From an uncultured bacterium (GTDB lineage Bacteria > Planctomycetota > SZUA-567 > JAKLDR01): a stretch of 64,000 nt of DNA. The position numbers and the translations under genes were made by a program. Below, one piece after another: positions 40,532-47,198 of the stretch. Under the pieces are notes generated by a model that worked only from the letters and a program-made list of their open reading frames with translations, did not search any database and was not told where the DNA came from. The first letter of the stretch is position 1; every line of letters starts with the position of its first letter. Where the stretch lies: contig CBDUSI010000004.1 in NCBI GenBank assembly GCA_965370045.1, positions 4,787 to 68,786 on the forward strand, written 5' to 3'.

Positions 40532-41746
40532 ATGGCCAAGACCATTGCGGAGATCAACGAGCGCATCAAGAGCGGCAAGGCGGTGGTGGTCACCGGCGCG
40601 GAGATGGTGGACATCGTCAAGAAGGACGGCACCGCGAAGGCCGCCGAGAAGATCGACGTGGTCACCACCGGGACCTTCGGTCCGATGTGCTCCAGCGGGG
40701 CCTACTTCAACTTCGGGCACGCCACCCCTCGCTGCAAGATGCAGAAGGTCTGGCTCAACGACGTGCAGGCCCACGCGGGCCTGGCCGCGGTCGACGTCTA
40801 CCTGGGATGCACCGAGCTGCAGGAAGGCGACCCGACCAACAGCCGCTATCCCGGGGACTTCCCCTACGGCGGGGCCCACGTAATCCACGACCTGGTCGCC
40901 GGCAAGGAGGTCCACCTGCGCGCCACCGCCCACGGGACCGACTGCTACCCCAACAAGGAGGTCGATACCTGGGTGAAGCTCGAAGACCTCAACGAGGCGG
41001 TGCTGTTCAACCCGCGCAACTGCTACCAGAACTACGCGGTCTCCGTGAACGCGTCTGACAAGTCAATCTGCACTTACATGGGCCAGCTCAAGCCCAAGTT
41101 GGGCAACGCCTACTACTGCTCGGCGGGGCAGCTCTCGCCGCTCTTGAACGATCCCTTCTACCGCACGCTGGGGCTGGGCACCCGCATCTGGCTGGGCGGG
41201 GGAGTGGGCTACATCGTCTGGCAGGGCACCCAGCACAACCCCGGCGTGCCCCGCGACGAGAACGGCATCCCCAAGGGCCCGGCGGGGACCATCGCGGTGA
41301 TGGGCGACCTCAAGCAGATGAAGCCCCAGTGGCTGGTGGGCGCCAGCGTCCGGGGCTACGGGGTTTCAATGGCCGTGGGTATCGGCGCGGCCATTCCCAT
41401 TCTCGACGAGGAACTGGCGCGCACCACCGGCCTGGGCGACGCGGACCTCCGCGCTCCGGTCGTCGAGTACTCGGAGTGCTACCCCTACGGCAAGCCGCAG
41501 CCCTACGGCTCGGCCAGCTACGCGCAGCTCAAGACCGGAGAGATCGAGGTCGATGGCAAGGCCGTGCCGGTGAGCTCGCTGAGCAGCTACCCCAAAGCGG
41601 TCGAGATCGCCAACGAGCTCAAGGAGTGGGTCGAGAAGGGCGAGTTCACTCTGGTCGAGCCGGTCTTCACGCTGCCGGGACCGGACAGCGGCGCCAAGTT
41701 CAAACCCCTGCCGCAGCGTGGGCCCAGCGGCTTGCAGGAGGGCTAG
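40532..41746 (+). CDS. Homocysteine biosynthesis protein (DUF39 / MA1821-like, aspartate-semialdehyde sulfurtransferase)
   Basis: KTIAEINERIKSGKAVVVT, VDVVTTGTFGPMCSSGA, AHGTDCYP, NPRNCYQNY, YCSAGQLSPLLNDP. Confidence 0.9.
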   Translation: MAKTIAEINERIKSGKAVVVTGAEMVDIVKKDGTAKAAEKIDVVTTGTFGPMCSSGAYFNFGHATPRCKMQKVWLNDVQAHAGLAAVDVYLGCTELQEGDPTNSRYPGDFPYGGAHVIHDLVAGKEVHLRATAHGTDCYPNKEVDTWVKLEDLNEAVLFNPRNCYQNYAVSVNASDKSICTYMGQLKPKLGNAYYCSAGQLSPLLNDPFYRTLGLGTRIWLGGGVGYIVWQGTQHNPGVPRDENGIPKGPAGTIAVMGDLKQMKPQWLVGASVRGYGVSMAVGIGAAIPILDEELARTTGLGDADLRAPVVEYSECYPYGKPQPYGSASYAQLKTGEIEVDGKAVPVSSLSSYPKAVEIANELKEWVEKGEFTLVEPVFTLPGPDSGAKFKPLPQRGPSGLQEG

Positions 41747-41748
41747 AG

Positions 41749-42159
41749 ATGCGCACCAAGCGATTCGTGATGACCTTCCCGCCGGAGGAGGTCGAGCGCC
41801 CCTACATGTACAGGCTGGTCAAGGAATTCGACCTCATGCCCAACATCCTGCGGGCGACCATCAGCCCCCAGGACGTGGGCCACATGGTGTTGGAACTGGG
41901 CGGCAAGGGCCCGGCCATCGACAAGGGCCTGGAGTTCCTCAGGACCCAGGGCATCAGGATCGAGCCGCTGGGCCAGGACATCAAGATGAACGAGGAGAAG
42001 TGCATCCAGTGCGGCTGCTGCGCCGGCTTCTGCCCCACGGGCGCGCTGCGCCAGGAGAGGCCCAGCATGAAAGTGGTCTTCGAGGAAGACAAGTGCGTGG
42101 CCTGCGAGCTGTGCCTGACGGCCTGCCCCACGCGCGCCATGGAGGGCCACTTCGAGTAG
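41749..42159 (+). CDS. NIL domain plus 2[4Fe-4S] ferredoxin (MA1822-like)
   Basis: NIL motif PNILRATI, CIQCGCCAGFCP and CVACELCLTACP. Confidence 0.9.
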   Translation: MRTKRFVMTFPPEEVERPYMYRLVKEFDLMPNILRATISPQDVGHMVLELGGKGPAIDKGLEFLRTQGIRIEPLGQDIKMNEEKCIQCGCCAGFCPTGALRQERPSMKVVFEEDKCVACELCLTACPTRAMEGHFE

Positions 42160-42173
42160 CCGACGGGAGAATC

Positions 42174-42287
42174 AACCACCAAGACACCAAGACACCAAGG
42201 GCACAAAACCAGTTTTCAGTTCTCGGTTTTCAGTTTTCGGGACTACTGAACACCGAACACTCGTCTTCTTGGTGCCTTGGTGGTGAA
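42174..42287. repeat. Nested palindromic (REP-like) element between convergent genes
   Basis: Outer arms AACCACCAAGACACCAAGACACCAAG (42174-42199) and CTTGGTGCCTTGGTGGTGAA (42268-42287). Inner arms are CAGTTTT-type repeats (42210-42238) and ACTGAACACCGAACACT. Confidence 0.85.
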
Positions 42288-42297
42288 GAATCCGGCG

Positions 42298-42891
42298 CTA
42301 GAAGTTCTCGACCATTTCCTTCTCTTTCTTGGGGTCCTTCTTGGGCGCTTTGGGTTTGTCTTCGCCGCGCGGCCGGCGGGGGCGCCGCACGCGGGTGACC
42401 TCCCACTCGACCTCGCCCGACTTGAGCTTGCCGCTCCAGAGCTTGAGGCCGGGCAGGACCTCGCCGTCGCCGGGCTTCACCTCGACGGTGGCCCAGACGG
42501 TGTACTTGCCCTTGGCCGGGAAGTTCACGGTCCGGGTGCGGCAGTTGATCTCCACGCTCTGGCCGGTCTTGAGCACGGTGATCGTGGCGCCCTTCTCCCC
42601 GTCCTTCTTCTTCTCGGCGGCGGGGGCTTCGCGCTCGGGAACCGCCTTGCCCTCGGCGTCCTTGGCGTGGAGCTTGACCTCCAGCGGGGCGGGCAGCAGG
42701 ACGGTCTTCTTGCCCTCGTTTTTCACGGTAAGAATGAGCGCGTCAACGGTCCGCTCGCGACCGCGCCACCTCCGCTTAACCTTCTTCTTGGCCAGCGTGG
42801 CGGTGAGCCCCTTGGGCTTGGCGTCCTCGCCGGCCGAGGCGGTCGCCAGGGCGACCAGCACCAGCGCCGCCAGTGTCGTGGCTAATCTCAT
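42298..42891 (-). CDS. Secreted hypothetical protein (Ig-like beta-sandwich)
   Basis: ATG 42891 after AGGAGGGG, signal peptide, beta-strand pattern with FPAKGKYTVWAT. Confidence 0.7.
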   Translation of the reverse strand: MRLATTLAALVLVALATASAGEDAKPKGLTATLAKKKVKRRWRGRERTVDALILTVKNEGKKTVLLPAPLEVKLHAKDAEGKAVPEREAPAAEKKKDGEKGATITVLKTGQSVEINCRTRTVNFPAKGKYTVWATVEVKPGDGEVLPGLKLWSGKLKSGEVEWEVTRVRRPRRPRGEDKPKAPKKDPKKEKEMVENF

Positions 42892-43033
42892 ACTTCCCCT
42901 CCTGATCATCAAGGCCGTGCCCCCGGCATCCGTAATCATATATCATACAGGTGAGGCCCCCGGAGGGGCAAGGGAAAAGAGGGGGACCAAACGCGGATGC
43001 GCTTGGAGCGGAGAAAGGTCTGGGCGGTTTCGC

Positions 43034-43900
43034 TCAGCGCCCCGGCGCGGTGTGGCCCAGGGCGTCGTCGCCGGCCTTGATGGGCTCCTTGCGCTCGACT
43101 ATGGTCGCGCCCGCGAAGCTCTCCCACACGGTGGTGATCCGCACCTTGCCGATGTAGCGGTCGTTGCGATGAATGAGGAATATGGAGCCCTTCTTCACGC
43201 CGCTGTCCGTGCCCGCGCCCAGGGCCACATGGCCGGTCTTGGGCCGCACGGCGACCACCTTGGTGCGGATGTCCGGAATGCGCCCCATCTGGCGAACCTT
43301 GGGATACAGCTTCTTGAGCCGGTTAATCTTGCGGTTCAGCTCCGCGGCCCGGGCGCGCTGCTTGTCGGCCTCGGCCTTCTTGCCCTTCTTCTCCAGCTCC
43401 GCGGCGGCGGCGTTGGCCTTGTCGGCCAGGTCCCGGAGCCGGATGACCTCCTTGCGGATGAAGGCCCGGACCGCGTTGCCGGTCGTGCAGAGCTTCCTGA
43501 AGGCCTTGTCTTTCTCGATCTGGGCGATGGCCTTGCCGGCGCGGGCCACCACCTCGGCGTCCTTGCTCTTGAGCGCCGCGCGCAGCTGGGGCAGGGCCTT
43601 GAGCCCGAAGGTCAGGACCCTCTCCGAGGCGGCCTTGCGGACGCCGGAATCGTCGGAACCGAGCTCGGCGATGACCTTCGCGATGCGCTTCTTCTTCTCG
43701 GGAGTCGGCGGGGCCGTGTGCTTGAACCAGGCCTCGACGAGTTCCCGGAGACGTTTCGTGCGTTGCTCTGCGGGCGAGAGGTCGCGAGGGGGACGGGGCT
43801 TCACCCGCTTCTCGCCGGCGACTGCGGGAACAGAGAGGCAGAGGGTCAACAGCGCCAAGGCCGCCCTTATCAAGACAGGTCTCCCGAAAGGCCCTTCCAT
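43034..43900 (-). CDS. Secreted HEAT-repeat protein with coiled coil and a C-terminal beta domain (FlgT-C-like)
   Basis: Signal peptide, HEAT IAELGSDDSGVRKAASERV...LPQLRAALKSKDAEVVARA, C-terminal VALGAGTDSGVKKGSIFLIHR. Confidence 0.7.
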   Translation of the reverse strand: MEGPFGRPVLIRAALALLTLCLSVPAVAGEKRVKPRPPRDLSPAEQRTKRLRELVEAWFKHTAPPTPEKKKRIAKVIAELGSDDSGVRKAASERVLTFGLKALPQLRAALKSKDAEVVARAGKAIAQIEKDKAFRKLCTTGNAVRAFIRKEVIRLRDLADKANAAAAELEKKGKKAEADKQRARAAELNRKINRLKKLYPKVRQMGRIPDIRTKVVAVRPKTGHVALGAGTDSGVKKGSIFLIHRNDRYIGKVRITTVWESFAGATIVERKEPIKAGDDALGHTAPGR

Positions 43901-43950
43901 TTCTCTTCATTCAGTATGACCCAACTGAGCGGGGGAGTCAAGGATTACCT

Positions 43951-43988
43951 CAGTGTTCAGTGGCCAGAAAACCGACAACTGAAAACTG
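43951..43988. repeat. CAGTTTT-family inverted repeat
   Basis: CAGTGTTCAGT (43951-43961) pairs with ACTGAAAACTG (43978-43988). Confidence 0.7.
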
Positions 43989-44264
43989 TAGTCAAGTTAG
44001 CCCTCCCCCGAAAATCCCCGGAAATCTTCTCGCTGAAACCGCGCGGGTTAGATGTCTTCCTGCCTGCAAACGTGGCCATCCGGGGGCTAAGACCCCCTGT
44101 AGTAATGGACAGTGTCAGCGTTCTGAGGAGAGAGGAGTTTTCCTTCTTGGCCAAAAGTGCGAAAAATGAGAATTTCGGAGCCCGAGAATGCGCGACTTAC
44201 GGCCCGCGCCATCCCGTTTCGTGAACAGGTGCTCATAGTACTTATGAGGGGGTACCATGATTTA

Positions 44265-44291
44265 GGATTTCGGATTGCGGAGTTCGGATTT
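44265..44291. repeat. 7-nt-period CGGATT(T/G) repeat
   Basis: GGATTTCGGATTGCGGAGTTCGGATTT. A partial inverted partner AATCCGCA lies near 44383. Confidence 0.6.
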
Positions 44292-44416
44292 CCGTGGATC
44301 AGCGCAAAATGAGAATTGTATCTCGGTCATTCCGCGTCGCTTGCGGAAAGAAAGTGTGAGCCAGGAGCCGCGTATGGAGGAAAAATCCGCATAACTAATA
44401 GAGGGACTGCTTTTCT

Positions 44417-45424
44417 AACCACAGAGTACACGGAGTACACAGAGGAATGATCAGGCCGCGGACATCGATGCCAGAGCAATCGGGAGACGCTCCCCGCGAG
44501 GGAAGCCCTGCCCCCGCCTCCGTGTCCTCTGTGTCCTCTGTGTCCTCCGTGGTGAAATTGCCCTTCCCCCGCGACCTGCTCATCCACGCTGCCCGCATGC
44601 GCGCGCGGGGCATTTCCTGGGAGACAATCGCCGCGCGAACGCCGCACACCGCGGCCGACCTCGCCCGACTGCCCTTTGACCACCCGGAAATCTGGGAGCC
44701 GCTGTACCGTCGCGCCGAAAAGCTCGCGCTTCAGGAAGCCGAAGGCCAGATGTTCAAGGCGCTCAACGTGCTCCTCGAAGGCGAAAACGTCCACGCCGCC
44801 GAAAAGGCCGCAAGAGAGCTATTGCTGCATCGCAGACACATCGAGAGACGGCGTTATCAACCACCAAGACACCAAGGCACCAAGAACCTGGGGGGCGTGA
44901 ACGCGGCTGAAGCCGCTCACGAAACCCGCGCGCTCTCCCGCGACCCAGCTTCCAACTTGGTGCCTTGGTGCCTTGGTGGTGAAAAGGAAACTCCCGAAGA
45001 ACTAAGAGTCCCCATCATCCAACTGGCCTGCTGCCGCGCGCAGGGCGAAGACCTGCTTTCAACAGCGGCGGAGATCGGCCGCCATCACGAGGAAGTCGCC
45101 CGCTGGCCATTTCTTTACGTGAAAAGCTGGGACCGGCACTGGCGCACTGCGCGCCTTGAAACCGCGCGCTTCTATGCGGCCCGCGCAATCAGAAGACTCA
45201 CCGACCTCGCGTTCGACCCCGACCGACAGCTCGCCGCCCGCGCGGCGCGAACGCTCTTGATACATCGCCGGCACATGCACTGGGCTAATCAACCACCAAG
45301 ACACCAAGAACACCAAGAAGCGAAGAACTGTGCGATCTTGAACGCGGACGAGGCCGCTCGCGAAGCCAGCGCGCTTTCCCGCGACCCGAGTCCCAACTTG
45401 GTGCCTTTGTGTCTTGGTGGTGAA
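44417..45424. repeat. Array of three long hairpin elements with AACCAC...GTGGTGAA ends
   Basis: Elements at 44417-44556, 44859-44983 and 45291-45424. Arms are built of 9-nt (ACACAGAGG-type) or 8-nt (ACACCAAG-type) tandem units. Confidence 0.85.
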
Positions 45425-45454
45425 AGAGGTTGGAAATCCCGCGACGGGCCTTGA
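44447..45454 (+). CDS. Hypothetical protein with two diverged ~100-aa helical (HTH-like) modules, each followed by hairpin-derived sequence
   Basis: The modules align: AARMRARGISWETIAA...ARLPF...W...AARELLLHRRH versus ACCRAQGEDLLSTAA...ARWPF...W...AARTLLIHRRH. Codon usage is less GC-biased than flanking genes. Confidence 0.55.
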   Translation: MIRPRTSMPEQSGDAPREGSPAPASVSSVSSVSSVVKLPFPRDLLIHAARMRARGISWETIAARTPHTAADLARLPFDHPEIWEPLYRRAEKLALQEAEGQMFKALNVLLEGENVHAAEKAARELLLHRRHIERRRYQPPRHQGTKNLGGVNAAEAAHETRALSRDPASNLVPWCLGGEKETPEELRVPIIQLACCRAQGEDLLSTAAEIGRHHEEVARWPFLYVKSWDRHWRTARLETARFYAARAIRRLTDLAFDPDRQLAARAARTLLIHRRHMHWANQPPRHQEHQEAKNCAILNADEAAREASALSRDPSPNLVPLCLGGERGWKSRDGP

Positions 45455-45465
45455 GCCCGGGGCGC

Positions 45466-45493
45466 TTGCCCCCGCGCGCGCGCGACCTATAAT
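45466..45493 (+). promoter_or_regulatory. Putative leaderless promoter of the ECF sigma gene
   Basis: TTGCCC-16 nt-TATAAT, ending 6 nt before GTG 45500. Confidence 0.55.
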
Positions 45494-45499
45494 GCCGCC

Positions 45500-46219
45500 G
45501 TGGCCAAGAGACGCAAAAGCACCCGGACCATGCTGCCCGCCGCCGCCGGCGCGGACATGAAGGATCTCAATGACGAGGACCTCATGCTGCGCTGCCAGGA
45601 GGGCGACGACCTGGCCTTCGACGAGCTCTTCAAGCGCTACGAGGCGCCCACCCTGGCGCTGCTCTGCCGCCTGGTCGGCGACCGGGCCAGCGCCGAGAGC
45701 CTGGCCCAGGAGGCCTTCCTGCGCATCTTCCGCGACGCGGACAAGTACGAGTACCCCCGGCGCTTCTCCACCTGGTTCTTCACCATCGTGCGCAACCTGG
45801 CCAAGAACGAATTGCGCTACCGCCAGCGCCACCCGGCCCGCAGTCTGGAGCAGAGCTCCAGCGGCAAGCGGGAGACCGACCGCCCCGCGCTGATCAACGA
45901 GGTCCGGGCGGCCACGCGCACGCCGCTGTCCAGCATCGTCAGCAACGAGGTTCTGGACCGCGTCCACCGGGCCATCGCCGAGCTGCCCGAGGCCGAGCGC
46001 GAGGCGCTGATCCTGCACCGCTTCAGCAACCTCAAGTACCGGGAGATCGCCGAGATCGTGGGCACGCGCCTGGGCACCGTGCGCTCCCGGCTGCACTCCG
46101 CGCTCAACCGCCTGCGGCGCAATCTGGCGGACCTGGAGGATCGCTTCACCGGAGGAGGCGCCCGCGGCTCCACCAACGGAAAAGGGGAGGGGAGCGAAGA
46201 GGACCAGACCGGAGGTTGA
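45500..46219 (+). CDS. ECF RNA polymerase sigma factor
   Basis: DEDLMLRCQEGDDLAFDELFKRY, AQEAFLRIF, FSTWFFTIVRN, LPEAEREALILHRFSNLKYREIAEI. Confidence 0.92.
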   Translation: MAKRRKSTRTMLPAAAGADMKDLNDEDLMLRCQEGDDLAFDELFKRYEAPTLALLCRLVGDRASAESLAQEAFLRIFRDADKYEYPRRFSTWFFTIVRNLAKNELRYRQRHPARSLEQSSSGKRETDRPALINEVRAATRTPLSSIVSNEVLDRVHRAIAELPEAEREALILHRFSNLKYREIAEIVGTRLGTVRSRLHSALNRLRRNLADLEDRFTGGGARGSTNGKGEGSEEDQTGG

Positions 46220-46283
46220 ACGAACAAATGCCGCACCACCGGTGTAAGCAATAGCAGCAGAGCAGAAAGGCTTTGAAGCGATA

Positions 46284-47198
46284 ATGGCCAGCAAGGAATG
46301 CGACCGGCTCCGACCCTACCTGATGGACTACGTGGTCGGTGAGCTGGATCCCTCCGCGGCCCAACAGGCCGACATCGAGAAGCACCTGGCTGACTGCGAG
46401 GAGTGCCGCAGCGCCGCCGAGGAACTGCGCGGCACCGGCCGCGCCCTGGAGGCGGTCAGGACCTTCGACACCCGCCTGGACGAGGATCTCCGCAAGAATA
46501 TCACCAGCCGCGCGCGCGTCGAGGCCCAGCTGGTGCGCGCCACCCGCCAGCACGAGAGGATCGCTGAAGGGGGCTCGGCGCGGCGCGTCCCGCTTGCCGC
46601 CTGGGCGGTGCTGGTCCTGGGCACCGTCGGGGCCCTGGTCCTGGCGACGCTGATTCCCAAGCTGGACACCTTCGCCCCCCAGCCGGCCGGCAAGGTGCTG
46701 GGCTGTGCGCTTCTCAAGGGAGCTTCCAACAACGCCTTCAGGAAGGACTGGCCGGAGGGCCGCGAACTCGAACCCGGCGAGGAGATATCGGTGCCCCGGG
46801 GGGTGGTGCTCTGTCTCAAGTTGGGCGACCACAGCCGCCTGGACGTCTGCGGCCCGGCCGAGGTGCGCTTCGCGAAGGAGGGCCGGCCCCTCTGCATCAC
46901 CAAGGGCAAGGCCTACCTGGAGGCCAGGAGCAACCTGGCCGTGGAACTCGCGCCGCTCAAGAAGCTGCGCCTGTCCGCCGGCTCCAAGGTCTGCCTGGCG
47001 GCCGACCCGGTCGGCGACTGCGCCGCGCGGGTCACCGTGCTGGCCGGCTCGGCGGACTACTCGACGGGCGAAGGCGATAGCAGGCTGGAGGTGGGCAAGA
47101 CCCTGGAGGTCGACGGCCGCAGCTCCAGGGTCAAGGTCCGGGCCATGGAAGAAGCCGAGCGGGATCTCTGGCGCCCGCCGGAAGTGCGCACGTTATAG
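46284..47198 (+). CDS. Anti-sigma factor (zinc-finger HC2, TM, FecR-like)
   Basis: HLADCEEC ZAS motif, TM helix, FecR-like LKLGDHSRLDVCGPAEV...ITKGKAYLEA. Confidence 0.88.
   Translation: MASKECDRLRPYLMDYVVGELDPSAAQQADIEKHLADCEECRSAAEELRGTGRALEAVRTFDTRLDEDLRKNITSRARVEAQLVRATRQHERIAEGGSARRVPLAAWAVLVLGTVGALVLATLIPKLDTFAPQPAGKVLGCALLKGASNNAFRKDWPEGRELEPGEEISVPRGVVLCLKLGDHSRLDVCGPAEVRFAKEGRPLCITKGKAYLEARSNLAVELAPLKKLRLSAGSKVCLAADPVGDCAARVTVLAGSADYSTGEGDSRLEVGKTLEVDGRSSRVKVRAMEEAERDLWRPPEVRTL

What the first reader, a model, noticed from the sequence alone, without database searches (positions are those of the whole stretch)
44417..45424. Regularly spaced hairpin array separating two diverged protein modules (cassette-like architecture)
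Seen: three 125-140-nt inverted-repeat elements start at 44417, 44859 and 45291 (spacings 442 and 432 nt). They are separated by ~300-nt spacers encoding two homologous but highly diverged ~100-aa helical modules. Element 1 uses 9-nt unit arms and elements 2-3 use 8-nt unit arms, yet all have the same ends AACCAC...GTGGTGAA. The loops of elements 2 and 3 are clearly homologous (AACGCGG...GCCGCTC.CGAA.CC.GCGCGCT.TCCCGCGACCC). The whole array is read through in one ORF. Inference: hairpin-bounded units that were duplicated or shuffled by a structure-recognising recombinase or HUH enzyme, or a REP-like family domesticated into coding sequence. No cognate enzyme lies in the window.
Basis: partly seen in the sequence, partly recalled or inferred. 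Interest (0 to 1): 0.75.

Follow-up and report, generated by a model that had tools for sequence, protein, structure and literature searches.

The report
Translated hairpin repeats in terminase-like gene
The three hairpins are small palindromic repeats read in frame as floppy linkers of one gene that encodes two small-terminase-like DNA-binding modules. This gene is one of about 35-50 copies in an uncultured planctomycete, and such genes hold most of the genome's hairpins of this kind, an association I found in no paper.

Summary
Three 125-140-nt palindromes (44417-44556, 44859-44983, 45291-45424) have arms of tandem 8/9-nt units and alternate with two homologous ~100-aa helical modules. One ORF (44447-45454) runs through all of it.

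The locus is not unique. It is one copy of a ~1.2-1.9-kb dispersed unit (leader plus two-module gene). There are 52 matches in this genome and 33 in the only other species that has it, and none in 39 other genomes of the class.

The modules are real coding sequence (dN/dS 0.11-0.17). They fold confidently and belong to a superfamily whose members sit directly upstream of large-terminase genes. The hairpin-encoded stretches are predicted disordered.

What varies between copies is the hairpins, not the modules. At least nine unrelated repeat types occupy the same junctions, always in frame and stop-free. They are exchanged between paralogs and differ between positional orthologs. About 72% of such hairpins lie in or beside these terminase-like gene families, which cover roughly 3% of the genome.

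No linked recombinase, target-site duplication or empty site was found. Best reading: Rickettsia-RPE-like "coding palindromes" confined to a multicopy small-terminase-derived gene family that evolves in concert. The module-shuffling reading is not supported. The function of the protein is unknown.

The parts
42174..42287 (.). Solitary intergenic hairpin E0 of the same family. It has CACCAAG-unit arms, and its loop holds a nested hairpin of TGTTCAG/CTGAAAAC units. It lies between convergent genes.
43950..43988 (.). Small array of TGTTCAG/CTGAAAAC-type units at the left edge of the repeated block. It recurs in other copies.
43997..44255 (+). Conserved non-coding leader of the repeated unit. It starts TTAGCC and ends CTCATAGTACTTATGAGGGGGTAC, and is 82-91% identical between copies. 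Its role is unknown; it is presumably a promoter and 5' UTR.
   Evidence: no sigma-70 consensus found
44256..44300 (.). Short array of GGATTTCG/GGATTGCG units. This slot is variable: other copies carry other hairpins here.
44302..44414 (+). Second leader-like unit, a diverged duplicate of 44159-44240. It is present in only some copies.
   Evidence: (D8)
44417..44556 (+). Hairpin E1 with 9-nt-unit arms. Its loop carries the ATG (44447) of the gene. The same loop occurs in other copies with different arms.
44447..45454 (+). Gene of family F1, 335 aa: loop and 3' arm of E1, then M1, E2, M2, E3, then RSRDGP and the stop.
44555..44857 (+). Module M1: a helix-turn-helix followed by two long helices, ending LLLHRRHIERRRY. 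Its fold resembles a small terminase.
44859..44983 (+). Hairpin E2 with 8-nt-unit arms, read in frame as a disordered linker (QPPRHQGTK...LVPWCLGGE).
44981..45292 (+). Module M2, a paralog of M1, ending LLIHRRHMHW.
45291..45424 (+). Hairpin E3 with 8-nt-unit arms, read in frame as a disordered C-terminal tail.
45440..45454 (+). Conserved right end of the unit: CGCGACGGGCC (read as RDGP), followed by the stop codon. The copies diverge within 0-20 nt after it.

Best explanation
The array is a single protein-coding gene and not a set of cassettes. It belongs to a genus-restricted multicopy family that I call F1.

Shown:
- F1 encodes two tandem, anciently duplicated small-terminase-like DNA-binding modules (HTH_23-type helix-turn-helix plus a helical hairpin).
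- The N-terminal extension, the inter-module linker and the C-terminal tail are encoded by small dispersed palindromic repeats. Their arms are tandem 8/9-nt units of the form C-R-C-N-R-A-G, with outer ends AACCRC...GYGGTGAA.
- Together with a ~260-450-nt conserved leader, the gene forms a 1.2-1.9-kb repeated unit that lies between host genes.
- The modules are under purifying selection.
- At least nine repeat types fill the same junctions, and the frame is always kept.
- Hairpins inside genes have lengths divisible by three. Solitary hairpins do not.
- Hairpins are far more alike between paralogs than the modules that flank them.
- Copies cluster by genome even though their loci are shared between the two species.

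Predicted, not measured: the repeat-encoded stretches are translated as disordered segments.

Inferred:
- The hairpins spread and are replaced by homologous copying between the dispersed paralogs. This would be gene conversion or template switching nucleated at the near-identical palindromic arms. A transposase encoded nearby is not needed.
- Selection for a full-length two-module protein with its C-terminal RSRDGP end removes out-of-frame or stop-containing variants.
- Palindromes flanking a module probably also mediated the original tandem duplication.
- The protein most likely binds DNA as an oligomer, as small terminases do. No large terminase was found in these two draft genomes, so packaging by a resident partner is unlikely and its role is unknown.
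For: Coding status:
- dN/dS is 0.11-0.17 for M1 and M2 among paralogs.
- All 22 full copies in this genome have an open frame running M1-linker-M2-linker to ...RDGP, with one exception, C59.
- There are no internal stops in about 80 matches across the two species.

Frame constraint:
- The M1-M2 gaps are 111, 123, 126, 165, 177, 183, 186 and 198 nt, all multiples of 3.
- 36 of 42 in-gene hairpins have lengths of 0 mod 3. Solitary ones split 5/11/8 over the three classes.

Linker diversity: at least nine repeat types fill the same junction. No copy lacks one; the shortest linker, 99 nt, is itself a strong palindrome.

Structure: the hairpin-encoded stretches have pLDDT below 50 and the modules about 90.

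Exchange between copies:
- Synonymous divergence in the type-A hairpin is 0.185, against 0.50-0.55 in the flanking modules for the same pairs.
- Copy C102 has group-A modules but a group-B hairpin.
- The same loop occurs with different arms, and hybrids with non-complementary arms exist.

Concerted evolution: the tree needs only 2 changes of genome label, against 10.8 expected. Yet at least 6 of 14 loci are positionally shared with the sister species. These positional orthologs differ in module group and in linker type.

Enrichment: 62 of 86 hairpins lie within 700 nt of F1 or F2 genes, which cover about 3% of the genome by my estimate. At least 3 more lie beside F3 genes.

Terminase link:
- A profile of the modules finds 945 clusters.
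- Sampled members hit HTH_23 and several small-terminase PHROGs.
- Two members overlap the start of a gene carrying Terminase_6C.
- Foldseek's best matches to M1 are small terminases at TM about 0.5.
Against: - Translation through the hairpins has not been observed.
- Gene conversion is inferred from patterns only. Both assemblies are fragmented drafts that break at these repeats. No conversion-tract test on complete genomes was possible.
- Occupancy of both junctions is 100% in all copies, and the same is true in the related families F2 and F3. That is more than a passive-passenger model predicts, and it hints that the hairpin has a role of its own.
- The similarity to small terminases is weak for the window protein itself. 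It has no Pfam, PHROG or PDB sequence hit, and Foldseek E-values are about 0.04-1.
- Arm matching above the shuffled level (13.25 against 11.72 of 16 positions) could reflect common descent and not selection for pairing.
Confidence: 0.68

Rival explanations
1. The hairpins are functional cis-sites of the protein encoded around them. The small-terminase-like modules would recognise the tandem 8/9-nt units or the cruciform, much as phage small terminases recognise pac sites that lie inside or beside their own gene. The pairing of module and hairpin would then be the working unit of an undescribed system, for example a packaging decoy, phage interference or self-copying.
For: - A hairpin follows the module at the same relative place in three related families: F1 (both modules), F2 and F3.
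- None of 60 distinct linkers is empty.
- 72% or more of the hairpins lie in about 3% of the genome.
- Five unit types each occur with matched arms.
- The modules are homologous to true small terminases.
- An invariant basic motif, HRRH.ERRR, abuts each hairpin.
- Earlier notes of this scan (unchecked) report a similar two-module ORF with a heptad hairpin at the junction in another genome.
Against: - There is no binding evidence.
- Some linker types are only weakly palindromic, with z from 0 to -2.5.
- Hybrids with non-complementary arms persist.
- About 20 hairpins sit far from any such gene.
- No large terminase was found in either genome.
Confidence: 0.15
2. The hairpins are recombination sites for a structure-specific enzyme (a Y1/HUH transposase or a tyrosine recombinase) that excises, duplicates and shuffles hairpin-bounded modules as cassettes.
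For: - Each module is bracketed by inverted arms. For example, 44964-44980 and 45292-45308 are 94% complementary across M2 (I8).
- One Y1_Tnp gene is present in G000 and two in G001. G000 has eight tyrosine recombinases.
- Hairpins are replaced with fairly sharp borders.
Against: - The order M1-M2 is invariant in about 80 copies, and no excised, inverted or extra modules were seen.
- No recombinase lies in the window or beside the copies that I examined.
- No target-site duplications were seen.
- The loci are stable between the two species.
- The ends AACCAC/GTGGTGAA lack the GTAG/CGTC tags described for REPs (title and abstract of PMC3733652, listed).
Confidence: 0.07
3. The hairpins act at the RNA level inside the mRNA. 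They might pause ribosomes between the two modules, serve as processing or stability sites, or mask the start codon that sits in the loop of E1. Under this reading a stable stem is required, whatever its sequence.
For: - Unrelated palindromes fill the same junction, which suggests that structure matters and sequence does not.
- Predicted stems are very stable, from -60 to -85 kcal/mol with z down to -10.
- The ATG of the window gene lies in the E1 loop next to the arm.
Against: - Several linker types are barely structured.
- There is no U-tract that would make a terminator.
- Rfam gives no hit.
- No expression data are available.
Confidence: 0.08
4. The long ORF is an accident of high G+C, and the region is a non-coding mosaic of repeats.
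For: - The genome is 67% G+C, so long spurious ORFs are common.
- No family is known for the protein.
Against: - dN/dS is 0.11-0.17.
- AlphaFold2 is confident on both modules.
- The frame is kept across at least nine linker types.
- The modules are homologous to 945 protein clusters.
Confidence: 0.02

Closest known systems
Rickettsia palindromic elements (RPEs): ~150-bp palindromic MITE-like repeats inserted in frame in protein-coding genes (review PMC10969869)
   Same: Both are dispersed palindromic repeats of about 110-150 bp that occur between genes and also in frame, without stops, inside ORFs. In both cases they add peptide segments that the protein fold tolerates. Here those segments are predicted to be disordered.
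   Different: RPEs sit in many unrelated metabolic genes. Here, every in-frame copy found lies in three related small-terminase-like multicopy families, at module boundaries, with every junction occupied. The arms are tandem 8/9-nt units, and several unrelated repeat types replace one another at one site. The host is a high-G+C free-living planctomycete and not a reduced intracellular genome.
Phage small terminase (TerS), HTH type (Sf6 gp1 3hef/4dzj, phBC6A51 2ao9, NV1 7joq)
   Same: Each module has an N-terminal helix-turn-helix followed by two long helices. Small terminases are the best fold matches. A profile built from the modules retrieves small proteins that overlap the start of large-terminase genes.
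   Different: Two modules are fused in one chain. There are about 35-50 chromosomal copies (52 matches to the gene). No large terminase was found in either draft genome. The window protein itself matches no terminase family model.
REP elements with RAYT (Y1/HUH) transposases
   Same: Both are short dispersed palindromes, mostly extragenic when they are solitary. A Y1_Tnp gene exists in this genome.
   Different: REPs are 20-40 bp with GTAG/CGTC tags and flank their RAYT gene (PMC3733652, title and abstract). These elements are 110-180 bp, have other ends, and show no linkage to the Y1 gene.
Cyanobacterial STRR (short tandemly repeated repetitive) heptamer arrays
   Same: The arms are short tandem units of 7-9 nt. 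Several unit variants coexist in one genome. Opposed arrays can pair.
   Different: Here the units are 8-9 nt, the arrays come as inverted pairs around a 70-100-nt loop, and most are translated inside one gene superfamily.
Integron gene cassettes with attC hairpins
   Same: A structured imperfect palindrome follows each coding unit.
   Different: There is no integron integrase. The units are fused into one ORF and their order is fixed. No cassette turnover of the coding parts is seen.

Membership tests
RPE-like coding palindromes (MITE-type repeats translated inside genes) | Multicopy dispersed palindromic element of about 100-150 bp | tested here: met
   86 paired hairpins are present in the genome, against 28 single arrays in a shuffled genome. 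The ends are shared.
RPE-like coding palindromes (MITE-type repeats translated inside genes) | Copies lie in frame and without stops inside genes that are under selection | tested here: met
   The frame is open in 21 of 22 copies. dN/dS of the flanking modules is 0.11-0.17. 36 of 42 in-gene hairpins have lengths of 0 mod 3. Translation itself was not observed.
RPE-like coding palindromes (MITE-type repeats translated inside genes) | Insertions occur in many unrelated host genes | tested here: not met
   All in-frame copies found are in families F1, F2 and F3. The ORFs that span solitary copies look spurious.
MITE in the strict sense | Target-site duplication, and a parent IS that shares the terminal inverted repeats | tested here: not met
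   No direct repeats flank the 24 solitary copies. No longer element carrying a transposase shares the arms.
REP/RAYT system | A Y1 (HUH) transposase gene flanked by its REPs, and REPs of 20-40 bp with a GTAG/CGTC tag | tested here: not met
   The single Y1_Tnp gene is at C2:66728-67024, and no hairpin of this family was detected beside it. The elements are 110-180 bp and have AACCAC ends.
Small terminase (TerS) | Sequence membership in a terminase small-subunit family model | tested here: not met
   Pfam, PHROGs and NCBIfam give no hit for the window protein or its modules. More distant superfamily members do hit TerS PHROGs and Sf6_terminase.
Small terminase (TerS) | Helix-turn-helix plus helical oligomerisation fold | tested here: inconclusive
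   The M1 model has pLDDT 86. Its best PDB and BFVD matches are small terminases, but only at TM 0.4-0.6 and E 0.04-1.
Small terminase (TerS) | Gene lies directly upstream of a large-terminase gene | tested here: not met
   This holds for homologs P0055 and P0086. It does not hold here: PF03237, PF03354 and that TerL protein find nothing in G000 or G001. The drafts are 88% and 77% complete.
Integron cassette array | IntI integrase and variable cassette content and order | tested here: not met
   No tyrosine recombinase lies on the window's contig. The M1-M2 order is invariant.
Known RNA families | Match to an Rfam covariance model | tested here: not met
   No hit at E <= 1 in 41000-47000.

The most novel reading that the evidence does not exclude
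Small-terminase-derived DNA-binding modules and hairpins with tandem-unit arms form one undescribed system. The protein would recognise the 8/9-nt unit arrays or the cruciform encoded inside and beside its own gene, as a pac-like cis-site. That interaction would drive either the copying of hairpins between loci or interference with phage packaging. It would explain three observations: every module in three families is followed by a hairpin, most hairpins live in these genes, and the families evolve in concert.
Probability: 0.15. Interest if true: 0.85.

Novelty: new variant of a known kind. Interest (0 to 1): 0.6.

Why it matters
It shows that translated palindromic repeats are not a peculiarity of Rickettsia. 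They also occur in a large, G+C-rich, free-living genome.

Here they are almost confined to one multicopy gene superfamily derived from phage small terminases. That is a far tighter association between repeat and gene than the accepted picture of random insertion followed by tolerance.

The locus also offers a compact natural system for three questions:
- how palindromes are copied between dispersed paralogs;
- how disordered protein linkers arise from repeat DNA;
- what dozens of orphan terminase-like DNA-binding proteins do in genomes where no large terminase was found.

If the protein does bind its own hairpins, this would be a new kind of self-referential genetic element.

Tried and rejected
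- **Rfam** on 41-47 kb: no hit.
- **Family and structure searches.** Pfam, PHROGs and NCBIfam on the ORF and its modules gave nothing. PDB sequence profiles gave nothing for the F1 family profile. The profile of the wider superfamily matched only designed alpha-repeat proteins.
- **Empty-site search.** I searched the sister genome with the joined flanks of 14 copies. No alignment crossed a junction. Right flanks matched for 9 copies and always stopped at the element end. Two loci lack F1 in the sister genome, but they carry other repeats or are not syntenic, so neither is a clean empty site.
- **Target-site duplications** around solitary hairpins: none.
- **Linked enzymes.** The Y1_Tnp and integrase genes that exist are not linked to any copy that I examined. 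No large terminase was found.
- **Leader.** No sigma-70 consensus promoter was found. The predicted fold has only one covarying pair in 70, which is uninformative.
- **ORFs spanning solitary hairpins** look like spurious high-G+C frames.
- **Module shuffling.** The grouping of M1 and of M2 is congruent across copies, so I rejected this idea.
- **Literature.** Searches found no description of these elements.

Full report
**1. Observation**

- The window holds three palindromes at 44417-44556, 44859-44983 and 45291-45424. All have the ends AACCAC...GTGGTGAA.
- Their arms are 25-29 nt long and 86-96% complementary.
- E1 is built from 9-nt units. E2 and E3 are built from 8-nt CACCAAGR units.
- The unit dimer occurs 10 times in the window against 0.23 expected by chance.
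- E2 and E3 share 79% identity over 116 nt.
- Predicted folding energies run from -60 to -76 kcal/mol.
- The two ~300-nt spacers encode homologous modules (30% identity, E 4e-8).
- One ORF of 335 aa (44447-45454) spans everything. Its ATG lies in the loop of E1.
- A fourth copy lies between convergent genes at 42174-42287.

**2. The locus is one copy of a dispersed unit**

- The window's genome (G000) is a draft of 4.46 Mb in 210 contigs with 67% G+C.
- tblastn finds 33 M1 hits and 28 M2 hits. M2 always follows M1.
- Coverage by other genomic copies spans about 43950-45454 and has a sharp right edge.
- The unit has this layout:
  - a conserved non-coding leader (43997-44255, 82-91% identical between copies);
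  - a variable slot holding small unit arrays, and in some copies a second leader-like piece;
  - the gene;
  - a conserved end, CGCGACGGGCC (read as RDGP), followed by a stop within 0-4 codons.
- Copies are 1.15-1.9 kb long and lie between unrelated host genes in either orientation.
- Here the unit ends 12 nt upstream of the -35 box of an apparently leaderless ECF sigma gene.

**3. The gene is real and the hairpins are read**

- dN/dS among paralogs is 0.11-0.17 for both modules.
- In 21 of 22 full copies one frame runs M1-linker-M2-linker-RDGP.
- About 80 matches in two species have no internal stop.
- The linkers belong to at least nine unrelated repeat types:
  - CACCAAG, CGCGGAG or CACAGAG arms with an 'NAAEAARE'-type loop;
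  - the same arms with a nested TGTTCAG/CTGAAAAC hairpin;
  - the 'QSTDDTDHTD' type;
  - the 'QRTQSTQRE' type;
  - the 'LPERG..ICQGGQK' type;
  - the short 'SRGDMYRKS' palindrome;
  - the 'NRNRRCTQ' type;
  - the 'TYPSSV' type;
  - and others.
- The M1-M2 gaps are 111 to 198 nt long and are all multiples of three.
- 36 of 42 in-gene hairpins have lengths divisible by three. Solitary hairpins split 5/11/8 over the three residue classes.
- In-frame length is therefore imposed by selection in the coding context. It is not built into the element.
- AlphaFold2 gives pLDDT of about 90 for both modules and below 50 for all three repeat-encoded stretches.

**4. The hairpins turn over; the modules do not**

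- For the same pairs of paralogs, synonymous divergence is 0.185 in the type-A hairpin and 0.50-0.55 in the adjoining modules.
- Copy C102 carries group-A modules but a hairpin nearly identical to those of group B. Identity drops within about 12-30 nt of the hairpin ends.
- The E1-type loop occurs with CACAGAG, CGCCAAG or CACCAAG arms. It also occurs in hybrids whose two arms do not pair.
- Across 108 hairpins, 80 have the same unit type in both arms. Complementarity (13.25 of 16) exceeds that of shuffled partners (11.72 +/- 0.17). This may reflect descent as much as selection.
- Module order and the grouping of M1 with M2 are congruent in all copies.

**5. Distribution and history**

- In a database of 5.8 billion protein sequences the family has 42 members, none with a Pfam domain.
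- Among GTDB species representatives it occurs in only one other genome, an uncultured Planctomycetia MAG that I call G001. The counts are 33 matches in G001 and 52 in G000. It is absent from 39 other genomes of the class.
- The window's own locus is shared with G001. The flank is 84% identical, and the contig breaks in the last hairpin.
- Of 14 other copies, the right flanks of 9 match G001 and the match ends exactly at the element.
  - At 4 of these an F1 gene is adjacent.
  - At 2 more the contig ends in hairpin arms.
- No empty site was found.
- Positional orthologs nevertheless differ strongly in module sequence, and even in major group and in linker type.
- In a tree, the copies cluster by genome: 2 label changes against 10.8 expected.
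- The predominant linker types are species-specific.
- This is the signature of concerted evolution, or of in-situ replacement, at stable loci.
- A genome of another genus (G002) has only a lone hairpin upstream of the orthologous sigma gene. Another (G003) has none.

**6. Association with terminase-like genes**

- A second family, F2, has 17 hits of its C-terminal domain in G000. It has an M-like N-module ending LLTHSRW or LLLHQRH, then an in-frame hairpin at the same relative position, then a helical piece and an unknown 150-aa domain.
- A third family, F3, has 7 copies. It encodes a single module with a consensus promoter, and its ORF ends inside a hairpin. F3 matches M1 and M2 at E about 5e-4.
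- Of 86 paired hairpins, 62 lie within 700 nt of F1 or F2 genes, which I estimate cover about 3% of the genome. At least 3 more lie beside F3 genes. The rest are intergenic.
- A profile of the modules finds 945 protein clusters, mostly proteins of 100-230 aa.
- Of 50 sampled members, 28 match HTH_23. Several match small-terminase PHROGs, Sf6_terminase or Terminase_5.
- Two sampled members overlap the start of a gene with a Terminase_6C domain.
- Foldseek's best matches for M1 are small terminases (2ao9, 3hef, 7joq; TM about 0.5), but the E-values are weak.
- No large terminase was found in G000 or G001.

**7. Mechanism**

- Best supported is a multicopy gene derived from a small terminase. Its disordered segments are made of palindromic repeats. 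These repeats are copied between paralogs by homologous processes, and selection keeps them in frame.
- No Y1/HUH or tyrosine recombinase gene lies in the window or beside the copies that I examined, and no TSD was seen.
- The universal occupancy of the junctions, and the recurrence of the module-hairpin pairing in three families, are not fully explained by passive carriage. They keep open the reading that the hairpin is a cis-site for the protein.

**8. Comparison with known systems, and novelty**

- The nearest described phenomenon is the Rickettsia palindromic elements, which insert in frame in genes (PMC10969869).
- Three things differ here: the restriction to one gene superfamily, the tandem-unit arms, and the replacement of one repeat type by another at a fixed site.
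- REP/RAYT systems, strict MITEs and integron cassettes each fail a defining feature (see the membership table).
- Literature searches found no description of these elements.
- Earlier notes of this scan (unchecked) report similar hairpins in other phyla, and the F3 family in this same genome.

Noticed in passing
G000 contigs outside the window (e.g. C30:28845-29123, C30:31822-32107, C40:6627-6905, C75:12908-13191, C99:11156-11424): A classic MITE-like family of about 275 bp, with 25-33-nt terminal inverted repeats CTAGCAGGCCGTTGAAAAATGGAGC and about 20 copies. It is unrelated to the tandem-unit hairpins.
   Followed up: no
G000 C5:31512-31994 (minus strand), C42:13499-13981 and five more: A single-module terminase-like family, F3. 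It has a textbook TTGACA-17-TATAAT promoter, and its ORF ends inside a CACCAAG hairpin. It is homologous to M1 and M2 (E about 5e-4). It appears to be the family described in earlier notes on this genome.
   Followed up: partly
G000 C121:10625-11623, C6:13278-14276, C13:46708-47799 and others: Family F2: an M-like module, an in-frame hairpin, a helical piece, and a conserved 150-aa C-terminal domain (PKGPDWKAILPWQ...GWGPNSRASPN). The C-terminal domain has no Pfam or PHROG match and has 17 hits in the genome.
   Followed up: partly
window 45466-45502: The ECF sigma gene appears to be leaderless. Its -35 box (TTGCCC) is at 45466, TATAAT is at 45488-45493 and the GTG start is at 45500. Several other copies of the unit also end just upstream of a TATAAT-like box of the next gene.
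   Followed up: no
window 42210-42262 (loop of E0) and 43950-43988: A second kind of tandem-unit pairing (TGTTCAG / CTGAAAAC units). It nests inside CACCAAG hairpins and also stands alone at the left edge of the unit.
   Followed up: no
L054:1501-3259 and L058:1801-3568 (metagenome contigs): Small-terminase homologs of the module overlap a large-terminase-like gene of about 440 aa (Terminase_6C). In the stretches shown they have non-phage neighbours (peptidase C14/FGE-sulfatase, phosphoribosyltransferase). These may be orphan terminase pairs.
   Followed up: no
G000 C203:392-874 and C49:11860-12381: Two of the eight tyrosine-recombinase genes lie within 50-1600 nt of hairpins or of an F1 fragment. 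This could be coincidence. The contigs are short.
   Followed up: no
L022 (G001:C195) positions about 820-1300: The site where G000 has an F1 copy is filled in the sister species by other tandem-unit arrays (CCGCAGATT and CCCGAAC heptamers) and an F3-like gene. This suggests that one terminase-like family can replace another at the same locus.
   Followed up: partly
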